Shown: piece after piece, positions 1-43,933 of the stretch
How positions within the stretch are numbered: position 1 is the stretch's first letter
Layout: the number at the start of each line of letters is the position of its first letter
Origin: a virus
Lineage: Duplodnaviria > Heunggongvirae > Uroviricota > Caudoviricetes
IMG/VR virus record: IMGVR_UViG_2711768014_000011
Length of the DNA stretch: 43,933 nucleotides
Strand: one strand, 5' to 3'
Position numbers and translations under genes: made by a program
Notes under the pieces: generated by a model
What the model was told of the DNA's origin: nothing
Database searches by the model: none
The model's input: the letters and a program-made list of their open reading frames with translations, nothing else

Positions 1-3000
1 ATACGCTATACCGTTAAAAATAATGGGCGGAATAATAATCTGGCGGTCAAAGTTATGATCATCGCTGATGGTGACTGTAACCGTACCGTCTGGTGTTTCC
101 GTGTTACCCCACGTACCGACTTTTTTCGGGAAGGCTTTTGATACAGCTTTAACGAAATCCCCTCTGACCTGGGTCGCCTCCAGCATGCCCTTAATCGTAC
201 AGTTCTGGTTAATCGTGACATTGTTGAGCGTTCCTGAGTTCGCATTCACACTACCACTGATATCCGCATTTTTAGCGGTCAGCTTTCCGTCTGATGTCAG
301 GGAAAATACCGGAGGACTGCCACCGCTGGTAATGGCGGGGGCTGTCAGGCGCTTCAGGAACACGTCGTTCATGAATATCTGGTTGCCCTGCGCCACAAAC
401 ATCGGCGTTTCATTCCCGTTTGCCGGGTCAATAAACGCGATACGGTTAGCGGCAACCAGAAACTGGCTCAGTTTGCCTTCCTCCGTGTCCTCCATGCTGA
501 GGCCAATACCCGCGACATAATGTTTGCCGTCTTTGGTCTGCTCAATTTTGACGCCCCACATCGCATTCCATTTATCGTTAGCGTCCTTCCACTCTTTCGA
601 AAACTCATCCAGTCTGCTGGCGTTATCCTCCGTCAGATCAACTTTTTCCAGCAGCTCTTTACCGAGATGGGATTCGGTTATCTTGCCTTTGAAAAAATCC
701 AGGTAACCTTCCGCATCATCGCTCGCCCGACCGACGGCCTCCACGAATGCCGATTTGCCAACGGTGTTCACACTGCGGATATAAAAGTAATAATCATGGC
801 CCGGTTTGATATTGATACTGGCGGCTATCCAGTACAGCCCCGCGCCAAGGTAGCGGGCTGTGGTTTCAACCTGCCTGATATCGGTAATCCGCGTTTCCGA
901 GAACCAGAACTCAAACTGTACCGTCGGATCATAAACCGCAAGATGCGGCGTGGCAGTTATCTGAAAATAGCCCGGCGTCAGCTCAATCCGCGACGGTGCT
1001 ACCGGTGCGGCAATCCTGAACGATACCGACGCCGGATCGCCCTGCTGTCCCCAGGCATTTACCGCCCGGACTGTCAGCGTGTACCGTCCCAGCGCCAGTT
1101 GCGTGAAGCGGTATGTGGTTTCCGTCGTCCGGGCCGTGCTGACCAGCCGCTCACTGCCGTCATCCGCTGCCACGGTCAGGCGAAGCATAAAGCTCACCCC
1201 CTTCACCACCTTCGGCGTGTCCCAGCGCGCCAGCACCTGATATTCCCCGCTGTCTGCGGTGACTTCGGCAGTCAGGTGCTGCACCGCTGGCGGCGTGACA
1301 CCATTCACCGTGCCGCTCTGGTCGCCGTCAAAGTGCGCCCCGTTATCCACGATGGCTTCTTTTTCCGGTACATGCTGCACGGCAGTGATGGCATACGTGC
1401 CGTCATCGTTCTCACGGATACTCACACAGCGGAACAGGCGCTGGCGCAACGTCGGCAGCTTCAGCCCCCACACGCTGTATTCAGCAACGCCGTCAGGAAC
1501 ACGGCTCACTTTCACCTTCACGCCGTCGGTGACGGACTGAACCTCCACGCTGACCGGATTGCCACTTCCGTCAACCAGGCTTATCAGCATGGTACCGGAG
1601 GATGGCAGCGTGATTTCACGGTCGAGCGTCAGCGTCCGGGTCTGGCTGTTTACCGCCAGCACGCGCCCGCCGATGCTGATACCCGCATAGTCATCATCAC
1701 AGATTTCAATGACATCGCCCGGCACATGGCGAAGCCCTTCTGCGCCCACGCTGAAGTCCACGGTCTGCGTTTCCAGCAGTTCTGTTTTAATCAGCCACAG
1801 CCCGGCGCGGTGTGCCTGCCCCCGGCTGGTACAGCCAAAAGCATCCATCTTCGTGACGTTACGACCGTAACGGGCAATGGCCTGCGTATCCTCCACAAGC
1901 TCTGTCGCCGTCTCCCAGCCGTTATCCGGGTCAATCCAGTTCACCTCAACGGCATTATGGCGGTCNNNNNNNNNNNNNNNNNNNNNNNNNNNNNNNNNNN
2001 NNNNNNNNNNNNNNNNNNNNNNNNNNNNNNNNNNNNNNNNNNNNNNNNNNNNNNNNNNNNNNNNNNNNNNNNNNNNNNNNNNNNNNNNNNNNNNNNNNNN
2101 NNNNNNNNNNNNNNNNNNNNNNNNNNNNNNNNNNNNNNNNNNNNNNNNNNNNNNNNNNNNNNNNNNNNNNNNNNNNNNNNNNNNNNNNNNNNNNNNNNNN
2201 NNNNNNNNNNNNNNNNNNNNNNNNNNNNNNNNNNNNNNNNNNNNNNNNNNNNNNNNNNNNNNNACACCAGGCCATGTTGTTGCTGTATGCTGGTTTTAAC
2301 GTTCCGTCCCAGATACCGCTGTATTGTCGCGTCTGCGGGTTATAGTTCGACGGCACCTGCAGAATGCGCCCGCGAAGATGATAATTACGACTCACCTGCT
2401 GGCTGCCGAACTGCTCCGAGTCCACCTGTACGCCGACCAGTGCAGTGTTCGGGTAGCACTGTTTCACATCGATGATTTCGGTGTATGACGACCAGAGCGT
2501 TTTGTTCTGCAGCTGGTCTGTGGTGCTGTCCGGTGTCATCCTGCGCATCCGGATACTGAACGGGCGCGGAGGCAGGTTATCCACCACCACCGAGACCAGA
2601 TACTGCGAGGTGGTTTTGCCCTTAATGGTGATGTCTTTTTCCGTCACCCAGCCACCGTTACGCTGTATCTGAACCAGCAGGCGGACTTCCGACGGATTCC
2701 TGTCTCCCTTTGAGGTGGTTTCCACCAGTGCCTGTACACCGAAGGTAAAGCGCAGACGGTCGATGTTTGCCGACGTGATGGTCCGGGTGATCGGCGTGTC
2801 ATATTTCACTTCCGTACCCAGCACCGTCTCGGAGCCGGAGGATTCAAACCCCTCCGGCGGTGACTGCTCCTGCTCACCTGCCCGGAACACCACCGTGACG
2901 CCGGAGATGTTGGTATTCCCCTCATTGTCCAGCACCGGCGTACTGTTCAGCAGCACGCTTTTTAATCCATCCACCGGACCTTCAACCGGCCCTTCACTGA

Positions 3001-3088
3001 TGGCATCGATCACACTCAGCAGCTGCGTGGACTTCAGGTTGTCCTTCGCTTCGCGCGGGGTATGCCCCTTACTGCTGCCTTTACCCAT
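1..3088 (-). CDS. J: Tail tip / host-specificity protein J (lambda gpJ-like); 3' end runs off the window start; interrupted by N block 1966-2263
   Basis: N-terminus [24 protein letters not shown] matches recalled lambda J. Reverse-strand translation of bases 1-150 gives [36 protein letters not shown], which matches the J C-terminal region. Confidence 0.9.
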
Positions 3089-3148
3089 TCCTCACGCTCC
3101 ATAAACGACAAAACCGCCCGCAGGCGGTTTCTCATAAAACATTTTGCA

Positions 3149-3854
3149 TCAGCGACCAATCACCACAACCTGACCACCATCCCCTTCGTCTGCCGTGCTG
3201 ATCTCCTGAGAAACCACACGTGACCCCACGCGCATTTCCCCGTACAGNNNNNNNNNNNNNNNNNNNNNNNNNNNNNNNNNNNNNNNNNNNNNNNNNNNNN
3301 NNNNNNNNNNNNNNNNNNNNNNNNNNNNNNNNNNNNNNNNNNNNNNNNNNNNNNNNNNNNNNNNNNNNNNNNNNNNNNNNNNNNNNNNNNNNNNNNNNNN
3401 NNNNNNNNNNNNNNNNNNNNNNNNNNNNNNNNNNNNNNNNNNNNNNNNNNNNNNNNNNNNNNNNNNNNNNNNNNNNNNNNNNNNNNNNNNNNNNNNNNNN
3501 NNNNNNNNNNNNNNNNNNNNNNNNNNNNNNNNNNNNNNNNNNNNAAAACACACCGCCACTTTTGGCACCCGCCAGACGCGGAACGATGTGGATCACGGCA
3601 CCATTTGCCAGCGGTTCATTAAGACGGGCAGATAATTCATTTTCGCCTGCATCACGCCCGGCAATGCGCACCTGATACCAGCCGTCGCTCAGTTTCTGAC
3701 GAAATGCCGGGAGCTGTGTGGCCAGTGCCCGGATGGCTTCGGCCCCCGTTTTCACACGAAGGTCGATGCGGCGGCCAAATCGCTGCAAATCCCCGTAAAG
3801 GCAGATGCGTGCCATGCCCGGTGACGCCAGAGGGAGTGTGTGCGTCGCTGCCAT
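3149..3854 (-). CDS. I: Tail assembly protein I (lambda gpI-like); N block 3248-3544 inside
   Basis: N-terminus MAATHTLPLASPGMARICLYGDLQRFGRR and C-terminus LYGEMRVGSRVVSQEISTADEGDGGQVVVIGR match recalled lambda I; the frame changes across the N run. Confidence 0.8.
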
Positions 3855-4714
3855 TTGTCGGTATACCTCTCTCGTTTGCTCAGTTGTTCAGGAATATGGT
3901 GCAGCAGCTCGCCGTCACCACAGTAAATGGCGGCATGATTCGGCACCGATGAACCAAAACAGCACAGCAGCACATCGCCCGGCTGCGCCGTTGACAACGG
4001 CACCTGATACAGCCCTGTAGCCTCCAGATTATCCAGATAGAGATTCTGACCATTACGCCACCAGTCGTCCTCACGATGAAAATCTGGCATCTCAATTCCC
4101 GCCAGATGGTAAGCGTCCCGGAACAGCGTGTAACAGTCCGTCACCCCGTGCTCAAAGCGCCGCCCGGTGAGATGCGGCACACAGCGGAACTTGTGAATCG
4201 CCCCGCGGCAGACCAGCCACCACGACAAATCACTCTGCACCTGCAGCCGCCGGTCGGCCTCACTCAGCCAGGGCAGACCACCGGGGTGGCTGTGGACCAG
4301 CGCCACAATCTCACCCTGCATCTCTGCCTNNNNNNNNNNNNNNNNNNNNNNNNNNNNNNNNNNNNNNNNNNNNNNNNNNNNNNNNNNNNNNNNNNNNNNN
4401 NNNNNNNNNNNNNNNNNNNNNNNNNNNNNNNNNNNNNNNNNNNNNNNNNNNNNNNNNNNNNNNNNNNNNNNNNNNNNNNNNNNNNNNNNNNNNNNNNNNN
4501 NNNNNNNNNNNNNNNNNNNNNNNNNNNNNNNNNNNNNNNNNNNNNNNNNNNNNNNNNNNNNNNNNNNNNTCCGGAAATACTCCTCCGGCTCACCGGAAAT
4601 ATTCACGCAGGGAAAATATCTTTCCCCCTCCGGTGTTCTCACCACGAAGCCGCACGACTCCGCTGGCGCACATCGCCGGGCGTGCGCCAGAATCGCTGAT
4701 TCTGTCTGTGTCAT
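3752..4714 (-). CDS. K: Tail assembly protein K (JAB/MPN metalloprotease-like HSHPGG motif plus NlpC/P60-like C-terminus); N block 4328-4569 inside
   Basis: MTQTESAILAHARRCAPAESCGFVV and EIVALVHSHPGGLPWLSEADR motifs; 103-nt overlap with I start as in lambda. Confidence 0.8.
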   Translation of the reverse strand: MTQTESAILAHARRCAPAESCGFVVRTPEGERYFPCVNISGEPEEYFRXXXXXXXXXXXXXXXXXXXXXXXXXXXXXXXXXXXXXXXXXXXXXXXXXXXXXXXXXXXXXXXXXXXXXXXXXXXXXXXXXAEMQGEIVALVHSHPGGLPWLSEADRRLQVQSDLSWWLVCRGAIHKFRCVPHLTGRRFEHGVTDCYTLFRDAYHLAGIEMPDFHREDDWWRNGQNLYLDNLEATGLYQVPLSTAQPGDVLLCCFGSSVPNHAAIYCGDGELLHHIPEQLSKRERYTDKWQRRTHSLWRHRAWHASAFTGICSDLAAASTFV

Positions 4715-23213: not shown

Positions 23214-23350
23214 ATCTAAATATTCTTTCAATTATAACCACCTTGCTGCAATATTATGATTATACTGTATAAAATTTAACTCCTCTTAGATCTTACTTCA
23301 CTGTTCCTTATGAAACAATCATCAAAATGAATCATATTGTAGTTAAGATT

Positions 23351-23815
23351 TTACTTTAAACACTGCTCGGTTATGTATTGCTGAGCACCTTCAAGTTGGG
23401 CCTGCATCATTACCAGTCGTTCCCGGAGGGTGAAATAATCCCGTTCAGCGGTGTCTGCCAGTCGGGGGGAGGCTGCATTATCCACGCCGGAGGCGGTGGT
23501 GGCTTCACGCACTGACTGACAGACTGCTTTGATGTGCAACCGACGACGACCAGCGGCAACATCATCACGCAGAGCATCATTTTCAGCTTTCGCATCAGCT
23601 AACTCCTTCGTGTATTTTGCATCGAGCGCAGCAACATCACGCTGACGCATCTGCATGTCAGTAATTGCCGCGTTCGCCAGCTTCAGTTCTCTGGCATTTT
23701 TGTCGCGCTGGGCTTTGTAGGTAATGGCGTTATCACGGTAATGATTAACAGCCCATGACAGGCAGACGATGATGCAGATAACCAGAGCGGAGATAATCGC
23801 GGTTACTCTGTTCAT
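23351..23815 (-). CDS. rzpR: Spanin inner-membrane subunit Rz
   Basis: [94 protein letters not shown] matches recalled lambda Rz. Confidence 0.9.
23410..23595 (-). CDS. rzoR: Spanin outer-membrane lipoprotein Rz1, embedded in the +1 frame of Rz
   Basis: [57 protein letters not shown]; lipobox VVGC and proline-rich tract as in lambda Rz1. Confidence 0.85.
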
Positions 23816-24315
23816 TGCTGACCCCACAAACAGATTTCACGCTCAATCTCACGACGAGTCATGAGACCTTTCCATTGCTTACCGCCAGCATATGTCCAGC
23901 GACGTAGCTGATCACATGCGCCTTTGATATCGCCCTGGTTTATTTTNNNNNNNNNNNNNNNNNNNNNNNNNNNNNNNNNNNNNNNNNNNNNNNNNNNNNN
24001 NNNNNNNNNNNNNNNNNNNNNNNNNNNNNNNNNNNNNNNNNNNNNNNNNNNNNNNNNNNNNNNNNNNNNNNNNNNNNNNNNNNNNNNNNNNNNNNNNNNN
24101 NNNNNNNNNNNNNNNNNNNNNNNNNNNNNNNNNNNNNNNNNNNNNNNNNNNNNNNNNNNNNNNNNNNNNNNNNNNNNNNNNNNNNNNNNNNNNNNNNNNN
24201 NNNNNNNNNNNNCCAGACCATCGTTACCACTTGGGCCAGTGATTAACACTGATGCTATAGCAATTGCTCCGCCACCAATAGCAGCAGCAACGACTTTTCG
24301 TAATGATGGAGGCAT
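23812..24315 (-). CDS. SAR endolysin (T4-lysozyme-type, RrrD-like); N block 23947-24212 inside
   Basis: N-terminal signal-anchor-release segment [34 protein letters not shown] and C-terminus [37 protein letters not shown]; start overlaps the holin stop (ATGA). Confidence 0.85.
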
Positions 24316-33395: not shown

Positions 33396-34138
33396 TTACT
33401 TCTCAATTCCTGGCTGGACGACATTCGGACGCCAGCTCTCCCAGTTAAAATTCACCCATCGCCCGNNNNNNNNNNNNNNNNNNNNNNNNNNNNNNNNNNN
33501 NNNNNNNNNNNNNNNNNNNNNNNNNNNNNNNNNNNNNNNNNNNNNNNNNNNNNNNNNNNNNNNNNNNNNNNNNNNNNNNNNNNNNNNNNNNNNNNNNNNN
33601 NNNNNNNNNNNNNNNNNNNNNNNNNNNNNNNNNNNNNNNNNNNNNNNNNNNNNNNNNNNNNNNNNNNNNNNNNNNNNNNNNNNNNNNNNNNNNNNNNNNN
33701 NNNNNNNNNNNNNNNNNNNNNNNNNNNNNNNNNNNNNNNNNNNNNNNNNNNNNNNNNNNNNNNNNNNNNNNNNNNGATAGCTGCCGCTAAGTGGTTCTTC
33801 CCGGTACCAGGTTTTCCGCTGAACGCAAAATTTGTACACCCGGTCATCAGTTCATCAGCGATGGATTTCGCCTGACTCAACGCGTATCGCTGCGCTTCGT
33901 TCTGCACCTGGTAATTCGAAAACGAGCATTTGCGGTGCAATGGCTGGATGCCAGAGCGATTCAGAATTTTTTCCACCCGCAACTGACGATTCTGACGGTT
34001 GATCTCCTCACAACGTTTCTGGCCTTCGGAAAGTTGCCACTCGCGCCACTCCGCTACCGTCTTGAATGGCGCGGTTACATGTGACGGGGCCAGTCTGCGG
34101 ATACGTTCAAGAACGTCGCCTGTCGCAATATTTTTCAT
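33396..34138 (-). CDS. ydaV: DnaC-like replication ATPase YdaV (helicase loader); N block 33466-33775 inside, 3' end frame uncertain
   Basis: N-terminal 121 aa visible with Walker [17 protein letters not shown]; size with the masked block is about 246 aa, close to K-12 YdaV. Confidence 0.7.
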
Positions 34139-38547: not shown

Positions 38548-41148
38548 ATGAGCACAAAACCACTCTTCCTGTTACGGAAAGCGAAAAAATCATCCGGTGA
38601 ACCTGACGTCGTCCTGTGGGCAAGCAACGATTTTGAATCGACCTGTGCCACTCTGGACTACCTGATCGTTAAGTCAGGTAAAAAACTGAGCAGCTATTTT
38701 AAAGCTGTTGCCACGAATTTTCCTGTCGTTAATGACCTGCCCGCTGAAGGTGAGATCGATTTTACCTGGAGTGAACGCTATCAACTCAGCAAAGACTCCA
38801 TGACATGGGAACTAAAACCGGGAGCAGCACCAGACAACGCTCACTATCAAGGCAATACCAACGTCAACGGCGAAGACATGCCTGAGATTGAGGAGAATAT
38901 GCTACTCCCAATTTCTGGCCAGGAACTGCCCATTCGTTGGCTTGCTCAACACGGCAGCGAAAAACCGGTAACGCACGTTTCACGCGACGGACTCCAGGCA
39001 TTACACATTGCTCGGGCTGAAGAACTACCGGCTGTTACTGCCCTGGCTGTTTCCCACAAAACCAGCCTGCTCGACCCGCTGGAAATTCGCGAACTCCACA
39101 AACTGGTTCGTGACACTGACAAAGTTTTCCCTAATCCTGGTAATTCAAACCTGGGACTGATAACTGCTTTTTTCGAAGCATACCTGAACGCTGACTACAC
39201 CGATCGAGGACTGCTGACAAAAGAGTGGATGAAGGGTAATCGTGTTTCACACATCACTCGCACGGCTTCCGGTGCTAATGCTGGCGGCGGAAACCTCACC
39301 GATCGCGGCGAAGGTTTCGTACACGATCTGACGTCACTGGCGCGGGACGTAGCCACTGGCGTACTGGCCCGTTCAATGGATCTGGACATCTATAACCTTC
39401 ATCCGGCACACGCTAAACGCATTGAGGAAATTATCGCTGAAAATAAACCGCCCTTTTCTGTTTTCCGCGACAAATTCATCACCATGCCTGGCGGGCTGGA
39501 TTATTCCCGCGCCATCGTGGTTGCGTCCGTAAAAGAAGCACCAATTGGGATCGAGGTCATCCCCGCGCACGTCACTGAATATCTGAACAAAGTACTGACT
39601 GAAACCGATCATGCCAACCCTGATCCGGAAATCGTGGATATTGCCTGCGGTCGCTCCTCTGCCCCGATGCCGCAGCGAGTAACAGAAGAAGGAAAACAGG
39701 ATGATGAAGAAAAACCGCAACCATCTGGAACAACGGCAGTTGAACAGGGAGAGGCTGAAACAATGGAACCGGACGCAACTGAACATCATCAGGACACGCA
39801 GCCGCTGGATGCTCAGTCACAGGTAAATTCTGTTGATGCGAAATATCAGGAACTGCGGGCAGAACTCCATGAAGCCCGGAAAAACATTCCATCAAAAAAT
39901 CCTGTCGATGCCGATAAATTGCTTGCTGCATCACGTGGTGAATTTGTTGACGGAATTAGCGACCCGAACGATCCGAAATGGGTAAAGGGGATCCAGACTC
40001 GCGATTGTGTGTACCAGAACCAGCCAGAAACGGAAAAAACCAGCCCGGATATGAATCAACCTGAGCCAGTAGTGCAACAGGAACCGGAAATAGCCTGCAA
40101 TGCCTGCGGCCAGACTGGCGGGGATAACTGCCCTGACTGTGGTGCGGTGATGGGCGACGCAACATACCAGGAAACATTCGATGAAGAGAGTCAGGTTGAA
40201 GCTAAGGAAAATGATCCGGAGGAAATGGAAGGCGCTGAACATCCGCACAATGAGAATGCTGGCAGCGATCCGCATCGCGATTGCAGTGATGAAACTGGCG
40301 AAGTCGCAGATCCCGTAATCGTAGAAGACATAGAGCCAGGTATTTATTACGGAATTTCGAATGAGAATTACCACGCGGGTCCCGGTGTCAGTAAGTCTCA
40401 GCTCGATGACATTGCTGATACTCCGGCACTGTATTTGTGGCGTAAAAATGCCCCCGTGGACACCACAAAGACAAAAACGCTCGATTTAGGAACCGCTTTC
40501 CACTGCCGGGTACTTGAGCCGGAAGAATTCAGTAACCGCTTTATCGTAGCACCTGAATTTAACCGCCGGACAAACTCCGGAAAAGAAGAAGAGAAAGCGT
40601 TTCTGAGGGAATGCGCAAGCACAGGAAAAACGGTTATCACTGCCGAAGAAGGCCGGAAAATTGAACTCATGTATCAGAGCGTTATGGCTTTGCCGCTGGG
40701 GCAATGGCTTGTTGAAAGCGCCGGACACGCTGAATCATCAATTTACTGGGAAGATCCTGAAACAGCAATTTTGTGTCGGTGCCGTCCGGACAAAATTATC
40801 CCTGAATTTCACTGGATCATGGACGTGAAAACTACGGCGGATATTCAACGATTCAAAACCGCTTATTACGACTACCGCTATCACGTTCAGGATGCATTCT
40901 ACAGTGACGGTTATGAAGCACAGTTTGGAGTGCAGCCAACTTTCGTTTTTCTGGTTGCCAGCACAACTATTGAATGCGGACGTTATCCGGTTGAAATTTT
41001 CATGATGGGCGAAGAAGCAAAACTGGCAGGTCAGCTGGAATATCACCGCAATCTGCGAACCCTGGCTGACTGCCTCAATACCGATGAATGGCCAGCTATT
41101 AAGACGTTATCACTGCCCCGCTGGGCTAAGGAATATGCAAATGACTAA
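38548..41148 (+). CDS. recE: Exodeoxyribonuclease VIII, RecE
   Basis: 866 aa, N-terminus [41 protein letters not shown] through C-terminus [10 protein letters not shown]; matches recalled K-12 RecE. Confidence 0.95.
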
Positions 41149-41950
41149 GCAACCACCAATCGCAAAAGCCGATCTGCAAAAAACTCAGGGAAACCGTGCA
41201 CCAGCAGCAATTAAAAATAACGACGTGATTAGTTTTATTAACCAGCCATCAATGAAAGAGCAACTGGCAGCAGCTCTTCCACGCCATATGACGGCTGAAC
41301 GTATGATCCGTATCGCCACCACAGAAATTCGTAAAGTTCCGGCGTTAGGAAACTGTGACACTATGAGTTTTGTCAGTGCAATCGTACAGTGTTCACAGCT
41401 CGGACTTGAGCCCGGTAGCGCCCTCGGTCATGCATATTTACTGCCTTTTGGTAATAAAAACGAAAAGAGCGGTAAAAAAAACGTTCAGCTAATCATTGGC
41501 TATCGCGGCATGATTGATCTGGCTCGCCGTTCAGGTCAAATCGCCAGCCTGTCAGCCCGTGTTGTCCGTGAAGGTGACGAGTTTAATTTCGAATTTGGCC
41601 TTGATGAAAAGTTAATACACCGCCCAGGAGAAAACGAAGATGCCCCTGTTACCCACGTCTATGCTGTCGCAAGACTGAAAGACGGAGGTACTCAGTTTGA
41701 AGTTATGACGCGCAAACAGATTGAGCTGGTGCGCAGCCAGAGTAAAGCTGGTAATAACGGGCCGTGGGTAACTCACTGGGAAGAAATGGCAAAGAAAACG
41801 GCTATTCGTCGCCTGTTCAAATATCTGCCCGTATCAATTGAGATCCAGCGTGCAGTATCAATGGATGAAAAGGAACCACTGACAATCGATCCTGCAGATT
41901 CCTCTGTATTAACCGGGGAATACAGTGTAATCGATAATTCAGAGGAATAA
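41141..41950 (+). CDS. recT: Recombination/annealing protein RecT
   Basis: 269 aa from [23 protein letters not shown]; ATG overlaps the recE stop; matches recalled K-12 RecT. Confidence 0.95.
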
Positions 41951-42005
41951 TTCAGCCTGGCGGTGTAATGCACCGCCAACTTGAAATATTTTTATGAGAA
42001 AAATT

Positions 42006-42155
42006 ATGAGATATGACAATGTTAAACCATGTCCATTTTGTGGTTGTCCATCAGTAACGGTGAAAGCCATTTCAGGATATTACCGAGCGAAGTGTAACGG
42101 ATGCGAATCCCGAACCGGTTATGGTGGAAGTGAAAAAGAAGCACTCGAACGATGA
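42006..42155 (+). CDS. ralR: RalR / Lar-family restriction-alleviation protein and type I toxin, truncated to 49 aa by an in-frame TGA
   Basis: MRYDNVKPCPFCGCPSVTVKAISGYYRAKCNGCESRTGYGGSEKEALER then TGA at 42153-42155; the next 14 in-frame codons (NKRTTGNNNGGVHV, stop at 42198-42200) equal the recalled K-12 RalR C-terminus that follows a Trp codon. Confidence 0.7.
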   Translation: MRYDNVKPCPFCGCPSVTVKAISGYYRAKCNGCESRTGYGGSEKEALER

Positions 42156-42192
42156 AATAAACGAACCACTGGAAATAATAATGGAGGTGTTC

Positions 42193-42381
42193 ATGTATAA
42201 AATTACCGCCACTATTGAAAAGGAAGGTGGCACTCCTACTAACTGGACAAGATATTCAAAATCTAAACTAACGAAATCAGAATGCGAAAAAATGCTCTCA
42301 GGTAAAAAAGAAGCAGGCGTTTCCAGAGAGCAGAAAGTAAAACTGATAAATTTTAATTGCGAGAAACTTCAGTCCTCGTGA
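42193..42381 (+). CDS. rcbA: RcbA (YdaC)
   Basis: MYKITATIEKEGGTPTNWTRYSKSKLTKSECEKMLSGKKEAGVSREQKVKLINFNCEKLQSS; SD GGAGGTG 3 nt upstream; between ralR and xis as in K-12; longer upstream starts are possible. Confidence 0.65.
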   Translation: MYKITATIEKEGGTPTNWTRYSKSKLTKSECEKMLSGKKEAGVSREQKVKLINFNCEKLQSS

Positions 42382-42480: not shown

Positions 42481-42696
42481 ATGGCACAAGTAATCTTTAA
42501 TGAAGAGTGGATGGTTGAATACGGCCTGATGCTTCGCACTGGTCTGGGGGCCAGACAAATTGAAGCATACCGCCAGAACTGTTGGGTGGAAGGCTTCCAC
42601 TTCAAACGAGTATCTCCTTTAGGGAAGCCAGACAGTAAGCGAGGGATTATCTGGTATAACTATCCAAAGATAAATCAGTTTATCAAAGACTCATGA
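42481..42696 (+). CDS. xisR: Excisionase XisR (YdaQ)
   Basis: 71 aa [44 protein letters not shown]...; stop abuts the integrase start. Confidence 0.8.
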
Positions 42697-42697
42697 T

Positions 42698-43933
42698 ATG
42701 TCTAAATTACCAACAGGTGTCGAGATTCGAGGTAAATACATTCGCATCTGGTTCATGTTTCGAGGAAAACGATGTCGGGAAACATTGAAAGGCTGGGAGG
42801 TTACTAACAGTAACATTAAAAAAGCCGGGAATTTAAGAGCGTTGATAGTTCATGAAATCAATTCCGGTGAGTTTGAGTATTTAAGACGTTTTCCCCAGTC
42901 CAGCACTGGGGCAAAAATGGTGACAACGAGGGTCATAAAAACGTTCGGGGAGCTTTGTGATATCTGGACAAAAATTAAAGAAACAGAGTTAACAACAAAC
43001 ACAATGAAGAAAACGAAATCACAATTAAAAACACTCAGGATAATAATTTGTGAGAGTACTCCGATATCGCATATTCGTTATAGCGATATCTTAAACTACC
43101 GGAATGAACTGCTGCATGGAGAAACGCTTTACCTGGATAATCCAAGATCCAACAAAAAAGGAAGAACCGTGCGCACAGTTGATAACTATATCGCCCTGCT
43201 CTGTTCGTTGTTACGTTTTGCGTATCAGTCGGGATTTATATCAACCAAACCATTTGAAGGAGTAAAGAAATTACAGAGAAACAGAATAAAGCCTGACCCG
43301 TTATCTAAAACAGAATTCAATGCATTAATGGAAAGTGAAAAAGGACAGAGCCAGAACTTGTGGAAATTTGCCGTATACTCCGGGCTTCGTCACGGGGAAC
43401 TGGCTGCTCTGGCGTGGGAGGATGTGGATTTCGAGAAGGGAGTTGTGAATGTCAGAAGAAACCTGACGATACTGGATATGTTCGGTCCCCCAAAAACAAA
43501 TGCGGGGATCCGGACGGTAACACTACTGCAGCCTGCTCTTGAAGCACTGAAGGAGCAATACAAACTGACCGGGCATCATCGCAAAAGCGAAATCACTTTT
43601 TATCATCGGGAGTACGGCAGAACCGAAAAGCAAAAACTGCATTTTGTTTTCATGCCCAGAGTGTGTAACGGAAAACAGAAACCTTATTACTCGGTAAGCA
43701 GTTTGGGTGCGAGATGGAATGCAGCAGTAAAACGTGCTGGTATTCGCCGCCGTAATCCGTACCATACGCGGCATACTTTTGCCTGCTGGCTGTTGACGGC
43801 AGGAGCGAACCCGGCGTTTATAGCCAGCCAGATGGGGCATGAAACTGCGCAGATGGTGTATGAAATTTACGGTATGTGGATTGATGACATGAACGACGAA
43901 CAGGTAGCCATGTTGAATGCGCGGTTATCGTAG
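42698..43933 (+). CDS. intR: Tyrosine integrase IntR
   Basis: 411 aa; catalytic-domain motifs RHGELAALAWEDVD and HTRHTFACWLLTAGANPAFIASQMGHETAQMVYEIYGMW; stop TAG is the last codon of the window. Confidence 0.95.
   Translation: MSKLPTGVEIRGKYIRIWFMFRGKRCRETLKGWEVTNSNIKKAGNLRALIVHEINSGEFEYLRRFPQSSTGAKMVTTRVIKTFGELCDIWTKIKETELTTNTMKKTKSQLKTLRIIICESTPISHIRYSDILNYRNELLHGETLYLDNPRSNKKGRTVRTVDNYIALLCSLLRFAYQSGFISTKPFEGVKKLQRNRIKPDPLSKTEFNALMESEKGQSQNLWKFAVYSGLRHGELAALAWEDVDFEKGVVNVRRNLTILDMFGPPKTNAGIRTVTLLQPALEALKEQYKLTGHHRKSEITFYHREYGRTEKQKLHFVFMPRVCNGKQKPYYSVSSLGARWNAAVKRAGIRRRNPYHTRHTFACWLLTAGANPAFIASQMGHETAQMVYEIYGMWIDDMNDEQVAMLNARLS

What the first reader, a model, noticed from the sequence alone, without database searches (positions are those of the whole stretch)
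42006..42200. In-frame TGA truncates the RalR toxin / restriction-alleviation protein to 49 aa
The ralR reading frame starting at ATG 42006 stops at TGA 42153-42155. The next 14 in-frame codons encode NKRTTGNNNGGVHV and end at TAA 42198-42200, which overlaps the rcbA start. In the K-12 RalR I recall (64 aa, ...EALERWNKRTTGNNNGGVHV) that position is a Trp codon, so this looks like a single TGG to TGA change. RalR is the DNase toxin of the RalR/RalA type I toxin-antitoxin pair and also alleviates restriction. The truncated product keeps both CxxC pairs (CPFCGC, CNGC) but loses the C-terminal 15 residues.
Basis: partly seen in the sequence, partly recalled or inferred. Interest (0 to 1): 0.55.

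Follow-up and report, generated by a model that had tools for sequence, protein, structure and literature searches.

The report
Common truncated RalR toxin allele
The premature stop in the ralR toxin gene is real, but it is a common, already catalogued natural allele found in about 310 complete E. coli genomes, including O157:H7 Sakai, and it most likely just disables the small DNase toxin.

Summary
The frame from ATG 42006 stops at TGA 42153-42155. Fourteen more in-frame codons (NKRTTGNNNGGVHV) run to TAA 42198-42200, which overlaps the rcbA start at 42193. K-12 MG1655 has TGG (Trp50) there and makes a 64-aa RalR.

It is not a sequencing error or a private mutation. The identical allele is in 310 of 5,426 complete E. 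coli genomes, about 19% of those typed at this codon. These include O157:H7 (Sakai prophage Sp10), O26 and O111, and three deposited phage genomes. RefSeq lists the 49-aa product as WP_001443846.1.

The stop removes Trp50, Asn51 and Arg53. These are invariant or nearly so in 60 distant Lar-family relatives, alongside the four zinc-ribbon cysteines. It also cuts the only predicted helix. Guo et al. 2014 found that changes at residues 49, 51 and 52 reduce toxicity, and that a purified K52 mutant has no DNase activity. The 49-aa product is therefore most likely a non-toxic remnant.

The RalA antitoxin RNA, its pairing site in ralR, and rcbA are all intact. Low-level UGA read-through by tRNA-Trp would restore the wild-type residue; I could not exclude this. 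Interest is low: an ordinary, widespread loss-of-function polymorphism.

The parts
42006..42155 (+). ralR, truncated allele: 49 codons plus TGA. A 53-codon version from ATG 41994 is also open.
   Evidence: Pfam PF14354 scores 39 bits (cut-off 28.6), matching profile positions 2-52 of 58. NCBIfam RalR NF007260 scores 126.9 bits (cut-off 113), matching positions 1-49 of 64. Annotated as ralR WP_001443846.1 in NCTC10444, E2865 and O157:H7 strain 3384.
42153..42155 (+). Premature stop TGA. K-12 has TGG (Trp50). The next base is A, giving a UGA-A context.
   Evidence: Alignment with MG1655. Allele-specific 55-mer searches found TGA in 310 genomes and TGG in 1,310.
42150..42150 (+). Linked synonymous change in codon 49: CGA here, AGA in K-12.
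   Evidence: The hypothetical intermediate (K-12-type ralR with CGA-TGG) occurs in 0 of 5,426 genomes.
42156..42200 (+). Untranslated remnant of the ralR 3' end: 14 codons (NKRTTGNNNGGVHV) plus TAA. It holds the N51, K52 and R53 codons and the rcbA Shine-Dalgarno GGAGG (42183-42187).
   Evidence: It is identical to K-12. The 55-mer covering 42128-42182 is 100% identical in all 310 TGA genomes.
42130..42145 (+). 16-nt site in ralR mRNA that pairs with RalA (codons 42-47), 7 nt upstream of the new stop.
   Evidence: Direct repeat 42130-42143 / 42302-42315. It matches the description in Guo et al. 2014 of 11 contiguous nt, with the second copy 105 nt past the ralR end.
42199..42377 (-). ralA antitoxin sRNA gene, full length and identical to K-12.
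   Evidence: Rfam RF02694 scores 225.1 bits (gathering 170), model positions 1-179 of 179. Alignment with K-12.
42193..42381 (+). rcbA (ydaC), DUF1187, 62 aa. Its start overlaps the ancestral ralR stop.
   Evidence: Pfam PF06688 scores 132 bits, profile positions 1-61 of 61. Annotated as WP_001302840.1.
41141..41950 (+). recT, upstream neighbour. With recE (38548-41148) it places ralR in the Rac recET-ralR block.
   Evidence: Annotation of the 100%-identical NCTC10444 stretch, offset 877. ORF list.
42481..43933 (+). xisR (42481-42696) and intR (42698-43933). This is the prophage end next to ttcA.

Best explanation
The window is a full-length Rac-type prophage integrated at ttcA. Its ralR gene carries a natural nonsense allele: TGG to TGA at codon 50, always together with a synonymous AGA to CGA at codon 49.

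Translation ends after 49 residues. The peptide keeps the four-cysteine zinc ribbon and the first half of the C-terminal helix. It lacks the invariant Trp-Asn-x-Arg motif and the rest of that helix. Single substitutions at residues 49, 51 and 52 already weaken the toxin, and a K52 mutant has no DNase activity. The 49-aa product is therefore most likely non-toxic and DNase-dead, which makes this a toxin-null allele of the RalR/RalA type I toxin-antitoxin pair.

The antitoxin RNA RalA, its pairing site in the ralR mRNA, and the overlapping rcbA gene are untouched. The allele is one haplotype of single origin. It now sits in many E. coli lineages and in deposited phage genomes.

Shown: the stop, its frequency, the haplotype identity, the family conservation, and the intact RalA. 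Inferred: loss of toxicity and of DNase activity, and single origin followed by spread through recombination or lysogeny.
For: - **Sequence and reference:**
- **Not an error:** the identical 55-mer is in 310 of 5,426 complete genomes. The ralR-rcbA haplotype is identical in the window, O157:H7 strain 3384, O26 strain E2865 and phage vB_EcoS-673R7, and ralR is identical in Sakai Sp10. The exact 49-aa protein is on at least 1,000 contigs.
- **TGG is ancestral:** Salmonella, Citrobacter and a divergent E. coli lineage all have WN(K/R)R. Among 60 single-domain representatives drawn from 1,690 family hits, W50 is 60/60, N51 is 60/60 and R53 is 59/60. The only other invariant positions are C9, P10, F11, C12, C30 and C33.
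- **Profile coverage:** the Pfam and NCBIfam profiles extend past the stop. The 64-aa form covers 2-58 of 58 and 1-64 of 64. The 49-aa form covers only 2-52 and 1-49.
- **Structure:** the AlphaFold model of a 64-aa homologue (pLDDT 72) has strands 17-22 and 25-30 and a single helix 43-58. The stop cuts that helix at residue 49.
- **Experiment (Guo et al. 2014, PMC4041452):** an error-prone PCR screen found that changes at aa 14, 37, 39, 49, 51 and 52 reduce toxicity. The purified K52 mutant does not cleave DNA. Changing SEKEA to SAIAE (codons 42-46) abolishes toxicity.
- **No recoding signal:** no stable hairpin follows the TGA (z = 0.37), and there is no Rfam SECIS hit.
Against: - Nobody has tested the 49-aa form. 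I found no paper that mentions it.
- NCBI's pipeline annotates it as an ordinary RalR coding sequence rather than a pseudogene. This follows from its score passing the model cut-off and says nothing about function.
- The peptide keeps the whole zinc ribbon and could retain a partial or different activity.
- UGA is leaky in E. coli. Read-through by Trp-tRNA would re-create the wild-type protein, so the allele may be a strong hypomorph rather than a null.
- The 45 nt after the stop show no further decay. They are too short to be informative, and they are also constrained by the rcbA ribosome-binding site and start.
Confidence: 0.8

Rival explanations
1. Leaky-stop hypomorph. The UGA followed by A is read through at a low rate by Trp-tRNA. 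This inserts exactly the ancestral tryptophan, so cells make authentic 64-aa RalR at a few percent of the normal rate. The allele would then turn the toxin down rather than off.
For: UGA read-through in E. coli results from competition between Trp-tRNA and RF2. It reached about 2% at 37 C and 4% at 25 C on a reporter in K-12 BW25113 (PMC10570021). The 14 downstream codons and the TAA are intact and identical to K-12. From memory, unchecked: a 3' adenine favours UGA suppression by normal tRNA-Trp (Engelberg-Kulka 1981).
Against: No read-through-promoting structure follows the stop. The reporter values come from K-12; I recall that its RF2 variant terminates poorly at UGA and that natural isolates terminate better (memory, unchecked). 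The intact downstream codons are equally explained by a young allele and by the overlap with rcbA signals. RalA would still repress the little that is made.
Confidence: 0.12
2. The 49-aa peptide is functional in its own right. It might retain the restriction-alleviation activity first ascribed to Lar, or it might interfere with full-length RalR or Lar proteins made by other prophages.
For: The complete zinc ribbon is kept, and the product still passes the Pfam, TIGRFAM and NCBIfam cut-offs. The allele has reached 310 of 5,426 complete genomes in several lineages and is carried by deposited phage genomes.
Against: The lost WNxR motif is invariant across the family, so it is needed for whatever the family does. 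The TIGR03655 score only just passes (40.3 against 39.6). The frequency is inflated by heavy sampling of O157:H7 and other Shiga-toxin strains, and by hitch-hiking on a prophage. Rarer independent alleles also lose the C-terminus: a frameshifted form P0005 and the RalR-RcbA fusions P0012 and P0015. That pattern fits decay better than a new function.
Confidence: 0.07
3. Sequencing or assembly error in this one record.
For: None, apart from it being a single-base difference from K-12.
Against: The same base is present in 310 independent complete genomes, in Sakai Sp10 and in three phage records. The exact protein is on at least 1,000 contigs.
Confidence: 0.01

Closest known systems
RalR (Lar), b1348, of the E. 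coli K-12 Rac prophage: the 64-aa DNase toxin of the RalR/RalA type I toxin-antitoxin pair (Guo et al. 2014, PMC4041452)
   Same: Same locus between recT and rcbA/xisR/intR at ttcA. Residues 1-49 are 100% identical. The RalA gene and the 16-nt pairing site are identical.
   Different: Codon 50 is TGA instead of TGG and codon 49 is CGA instead of AGA. The product lacks residues 50-64, including N51 and K52, which the K-12 study found to matter for toxicity and DNase activity.
RefSeq WP_001443846.1, a 49-aa protein annotated as 'type I toxin-antitoxin system endodeoxyribonuclease toxin RalR'
   Same: Identical sequence. It is annotated at the same position in NCTC10444, O26 strain E2865 and O157:H7 strain 3384, and it is on at least 1,000 contigs.
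   Different: Nothing; this is the same object. The functional name is carried over from the 64-aa protein because the score passes the model cut-off. The curated Sakai annotation has no coding sequence there.
Lar family of small zinc-ribbon proteins (Pfam PF14354, TIGR03655)
   Same: CPFCG...C..C zinc ribbon followed by a helix. Scores are above the family cut-offs.
   Different: The product lacks the family's invariant W-N-x-R motif.
Inactivated chromosomal type I toxins, such as the hok-like loci of K-12 noted as apparently inactive in the introduction of PMC4041452
   Same: A small toxin gene disabled by a point mutation while the RNA partner persists.
   Different: Here the RNA partner lies antisense to a protein-coding gene (rcbA). 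Its persistence therefore cannot be read as selection on the antitoxin.

Membership tests
Lar family (Pfam PF14354 / TIGR03655) | Score above the curated cut-off | tested here: met
   PF14354 scores 39 bits against 28.6. TIGR03655 scores 40.3 against 39.6, which is borderline.
Lar family (Pfam PF14354 / TIGR03655) | Four-cysteine zinc ribbon (CPFCG ... CxxC) | tested here: met
   C9, C12, C30 and C33 are present. These positions are invariant in 60 of 60 distant members.
Lar family (Pfam PF14354 / TIGR03655) | C-terminal W-N-x-R motif | tested here: not met
   W50 is 60/60, N51 is 60/60 and R53 is 59/60 in the family. In the window the W codon is TGA, and the N and R codons lie after the stop.
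RalR equivalog (NCBIfam NF007260) | Score above cut-off and full-length match | tested here: inconclusive
   The score passes (126.9 against 113), but only model positions 1-49 of 64 are matched. The 64-aa form scores 166 over positions 1-64.
RalR/RalA type I toxin-antitoxin system | RalA sRNA gene on the opposite strand, downstream of ralR | tested here: met
   Rfam RF02694 at 42199-42377 (minus strand), 225.1 bits against 170, full length.
RalR/RalA type I toxin-antitoxin system | 16-nt complementarity between RalA and the ralR coding region | tested here: met
   Repeat 42130-42143 / 42302-42315, identical to K-12. It matches the description in PMC4041452.
RalR/RalA type I toxin-antitoxin system | A toxic protein with DNase activity | not testable with these tools
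   Predicted to be lost. Residues 51 and 52, which the K-12 screen found to matter, are not translated.
RalR/RalA type I toxin-antitoxin system | Location in a Rac-type prophage: recE-recT-ralR-rcbA-xisR-intR next to ttcA | tested here: met
Selenocysteine or programmed UGA recoding | Stable stem-loop (SECIS-like) just downstream of the UGA | tested here: not met
   The 66 nt from 42150 fold at -6.4 kcal/mol, z = 0.37 against shuffles, with no hairpin next to the UGA. No Rfam recoding element is found.

The most novel reading that the evidence does not exclude
The TGA-A stop acts as a leaky attenuator. Near-cognate Trp-tRNA reads it at a percent-level rate and re-inserts the ancestral tryptophan. 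Carriers, including O157:H7, would then make authentic RalR at a much lower dose, and the dose would vary with temperature and growth state as UGA read-through does. A lethal prophage toxin would become a low-dose, condition-dependent one.
Probability: 0.1. Interest if true: 0.45.

Novelty: already known. Interest (0 to 1): 0.15.

Why it matters
- **Transfer of K-12 results.** Work on RalR/RalA (toxicity, DNase activity, fosfomycin tolerance) should not be carried over automatically to the roughly one in five ralR-bearing E. coli genomes with this allele. That group includes O157:H7 Sakai and O26 and O111 Shiga-toxin strains.
- **Annotation.** These genomes carry the full name 'endodeoxyribonuclease toxin RalR' on a product that lacks the family's invariant motif. 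Toxin-antitoxin inventories built from annotation will overcount active RalR.
- **A ready-made experiment.** Natural TGA and TGG alleles differ at only two nearby bases within ralR. They could be used to test what the C-terminal WNxR motif of Lar-family proteins does.
- **Scope.** Beyond these points this is an ordinary loss-of-function polymorphism.

Tried and rejected
- **Recoding.** I looked for a SECIS-like or read-through hairpin after the TGA by RNA folding and with Rfam at a permissive threshold. Only RalA came up.
- **Solved structures.** A sequence search of the PDB found only spurious weak hits to a chitin-binding protein.
- **Fold search.** A Foldseek search of the AlphaFold model against the PDB gave no match better than E = 0.33, just generic zinc-ribbon modules. 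The fold comparison added nothing.
- **Literature.** I searched for any mention of a truncated or nonsense ralR and found none. King and Murray 1995, the original lar paper, is not held. Two restriction-modification reviews did not contain 'Lar' as a word. The supplementary files of Guo et al. are not held, so I could not see whether their screen recovered stop codons.
- **Progenitor allele.** I searched for the immediate wild-type progenitor, K-12-type ralR with CGA-TGG. It is absent from all 5,426 genomes. CGA-TGG exists only on a divergent ralR lineage next to a different recT.
- **Family search input.** I used the 64-aa homologue P0004 instead.
- **Apparent gpJ disruption.** I briefly thought the tail gene gpJ at the left end of the window was broken and that two unknown ORFs replaced it. 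This is an artefact of masked N runs in the window.

Full report
**Observation.** ATG 42006 opens a frame of 49 sense codons (MRYDNVKPCPFCGCPSVTVKAISGYYRAKCNGCESRTGYGGSEKEALER). It stops at TGA 42153-42155. The same frame then continues through 14 codons (NKRTTGNNNGGVHV) to TAA 42198-42200. The rcbA (DUF1187) start ATG is at 42193, so that TAA overlaps it as ATGTATAA. An in-frame ATG four codons upstream (41994) gives an alternative 53-aa reading.

**Comparison with K-12.** In MG1655, ralR (b1348) is 195 nt and 64 aa. It lies between recT and rcbA, with ralA annotated on the opposite strand. Over about 470 aligned bases the window differs from K-12 at four places:
- a T5 rather than T6 run upstream of ralR;
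- CGA rather than AGA at codon 49, which is synonymous;
- TGA rather than TGG at codon 50;
- TGA rather than AGA at rcbA codon 63.

The addition is the linked synonymous change 5 nt upstream.

**Context.** Bases 19000-43933 of the window match E. coli NCTC10444 at 100% apart from masked stretches. There the region is annotated as a full-length Rac-type prophage next to ttcA. It has a capsid, terminase, tail and lysis module, the trkG insert, sieB, kilR, racC, recE, recT, ralR, a DUF1187 gene, xisR and intR. NCBI's pipeline annotates ralR there as a 150-nt coding sequence, WP_001443846.1, and not as a pseudogene. The same is true in O26 strain E2865 and O157:H7 strain 3384.

**Is it an error or a private mutation?** No. 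I used 55-mers centred on the variable base, so that every 28-base seed word has to contain it.
- The TGA allele is in 310 of 5,426 complete E. coli genomes, all at 100% identity.
- The TGG allele is in 1,310 genomes.
- About 1,740 to 1,920 genomes carry the locus at all.

Carriers include many O157:H7 strains, O26, O111 and assorted human, bovine and poultry isolates. The O157:H7 Sakai reference carries the identical ralR sequence in prophage Sp10. Its curated annotation has no gene there: locus tag ECs_1932 is absent between ECs_1931 and ECs_1933. Three deposited phage genomes (vB_EcoS-666R9, -673R7 and -613R10) are 99.8% identical over the last 6 kb of the window, and one annotates the 53-aa form. 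The exact 49-aa protein is recorded on at least 1,000 contigs. These frequencies reflect the database, which over-samples Shiga-toxin strains.

**Origin.** Across ralR and rcbA the TGA haplotype is base-for-base identical in the window, O157:H7 strain 3384, O26 strain E2865 and phage 673R7. Differences appear only further on, in xisR. The hypothetical intermediate, K-12-type ralR with CGA-TGG, is found in none of the 5,426 genomes. CGA-TGG occurs only on a divergent ralR lineage (MRYEKV...) that sits next to a different recT. I infer one origin followed by spread through descent, recombination at ttcA or lysogeny. I did not test this phylogenetically.

**What the stop removes.** Close homologues from Salmonella, Citrobacter and the divergent E. 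coli lineage all read ...RWN(K/R)R.... A full search of 1.84 billion representatives with a 64-aa homologue found 1,690 family members, and nearly all matches extend to query position 52-55 or beyond. I aligned 60 single-domain representatives of 90 aa or less.
- W50 and N51 are invariant (60/60) and R53 is nearly so (59/60).
- The only other invariant positions are C9, P10, F11, C12, C30 and C33.

So TGG is ancestral, and the stop deletes the second of the family's two conserved signatures. The profiles agree. The 64-aa form covers Pfam PF14354 positions 2-58 of 58 and NCBIfam RalR positions 1-64 of 64. The 49-aa form covers only 2-52 and 1-49. An AlphaFold model of the 64-aa homologue P0004 was built on a shallow alignment (pLDDT 72). 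It shows a beta hairpin (17-22, 25-30) and a single helix (43-58), and the stop cuts that helix after residue 49.

**Experimental anchor.** Guo et al. 2014 (PMC4041452) showed that K-12 RalR is toxic and cleaves DNA. They screened error-prone PCR mutants and found that changes at residues 14, 37, 39, 49, 51 and 52 reduce toxicity. A purified residue-52 mutant does not cleave DNA; the paper calls it K52Q in the text and K52G in its table. Replacing SEKEA with SAIAE (codons 42-46) abolishes toxicity. Residues 51 and 52 lie beyond the new stop. This is the strongest reason to expect the 49-aa product to be non-toxic and DNase-dead. It remains an inference, because the truncated form itself has not been tested in anything I could find.

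**What stays intact.**
- Rfam finds a full-length RalA at 42199-42377 on the minus strand, at 225 bits against a gathering score of 170.
- The 16-nt RalA pairing site in ralR (42130-42145) and its partner (42302-42317) are identical to K-12. The pairing site ends 7 nt before the new stop.
- rcbA has its own GGAGG 5 nt upstream of its ATG. Ribosomes on ralR now terminate 38 nt before the rcbA start instead of overlapping it. Any effect on rcbA translation is speculative.
- RalA is antisense to rcbA, so its conservation cannot be taken as selection on the antitoxin.

**Recoding and read-through.** No stable hairpin follows the TGA (z = 0.37 against shuffles), and no recoding element is detected. 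UGA is nevertheless leaky in E. coli. A K-12 reporter gave about 2% read-through at 37 C and 4% at 25 C, through competition between Trp-tRNA and RF2 (PMC10570021). Read-through here would insert tryptophan, the ancestral residue, and the downstream codons are intact. A strong hypomorph rather than a strict null cannot be excluded, and this is the most novel reading that the evidence leaves open. From memory, unchecked: a 3' A favours UGA suppression, and K-12's RF2 is unusually weak at UGA, so natural carriers would read through less.

**Verdict.** The feature is an ordinary, widespread, already catalogued nonsense polymorphism of a prophage toxin gene, and it is most likely a loss-of-function allele.

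Its practical value is as a caution. K-12 findings on RalR/RalA may not apply to O157:H7 and many other strains. The database name 'endodeoxyribonuclease toxin RalR' on WP_001443846.1 rests only on a score that passes the model cut-off over 49 of 64 positions.

No solved structure or significant fold match exists for the family. The role of the WNxR motif is therefore known only from conservation and from the K-12 mutants.

Noticed in passing
window 42193-42381 (stop at 42379-42381): rcbA/ydaC is 62 aa here, where K-12 has AGA instead of TGA and runs 7 codons further (69 aa). The 62-aa form matches Pfam DUF1187 end to end (positions 1-61 of 61), and the 55-mer carrying its TGA stop is in 738 complete genomes. 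The K-12 reference form looks like the extended, atypical one.
   Followed up: partly
window 42130-42143 and 42302-42315; proteins P0012 and P0015: Public E. coli records contain RalR-RcbA fusion proteins. The P0012 junction (...SEKEA|GVSREQ...) is what a 172-nt deletion between the two RalA-pairing direct repeats would give. The repeats sit in the same codon phase in the two genes (EKEA and KKEA). These alleles are rare, on 1-2 contigs each, and they also lose the RalR C-terminus.
   Followed up: partly
window 42150 and 42155: The synonymous CGA at codon 49 and the TGA at codon 50 are completely linked. A K-12-type ralR with CGA-TGG was found in 0 of 5,426 genomes. CGA-TGG exists only on a divergent ralR lineage next to a different, 350-aa RecT-family gene. 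The cause could be two close mutations, one multi-base event, or a short conversion patch followed by a mutation.
   Followed up: partly
L009 (NC_002695.2, Sakai Sp10), locus 23350-23593: The curated O157:H7 Sakai annotation has no feature over the identical truncated ralR; locus tag ECs_1932 is missing. NCBI's automatic pipeline calls a 49-aa RalR in other genomes, and a phage record calls a 53-aa 'endodeoxyribonuclease toxin'. The same sequence is annotated three different ways.
   Followed up: yes
window 1966-2263, 3248-3544, 4330-4569, 23947-24212, 33466-33775: Five masked runs of N, 1,411 bases in all. ORF calls across them are unreliable. For example, tail gene gpJ looks broken and spurious antisense ORFs appear at 68-2475. 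None of the runs is near ralR.
   Followed up: yes
window 1-3200 compared with 19000-43933: The right 25 kb matches NCTC10444 at 100%. The left 3.2 kb (gpJ) matches best to other strains at only about 98.6%, and NCTC10444 is not among the eight best hits listed. The tail-tip end of this prophage therefore differs from the NCTC10444 copy, which suggests a mosaic or a different host strain.
   Followed up: no
one search hit list (e.g. P0050, P0055, P0156): Many Lar-family relatives are not single small proteins. They are 100-430 aa long with 2-5 tandem Lar domains. I did not look at what these are or where they occur.
   Followed up: no
phage record PP818812.1 (hit H106): A phage deposited as Actinobacillus phage vB_Apl-pPE4 carries recE/recT sequence 92.7% identical in DNA to this E. 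coli Rac region. That is unexpectedly close for a Pasteurellaceae host.
   Followed up: no
window 41989-41993: The T run between recT and ralR has 5 T here and 6 in K-12. It lies just upstream of the alternative ATG at 41994. No effect was examined.
   Followed up: no
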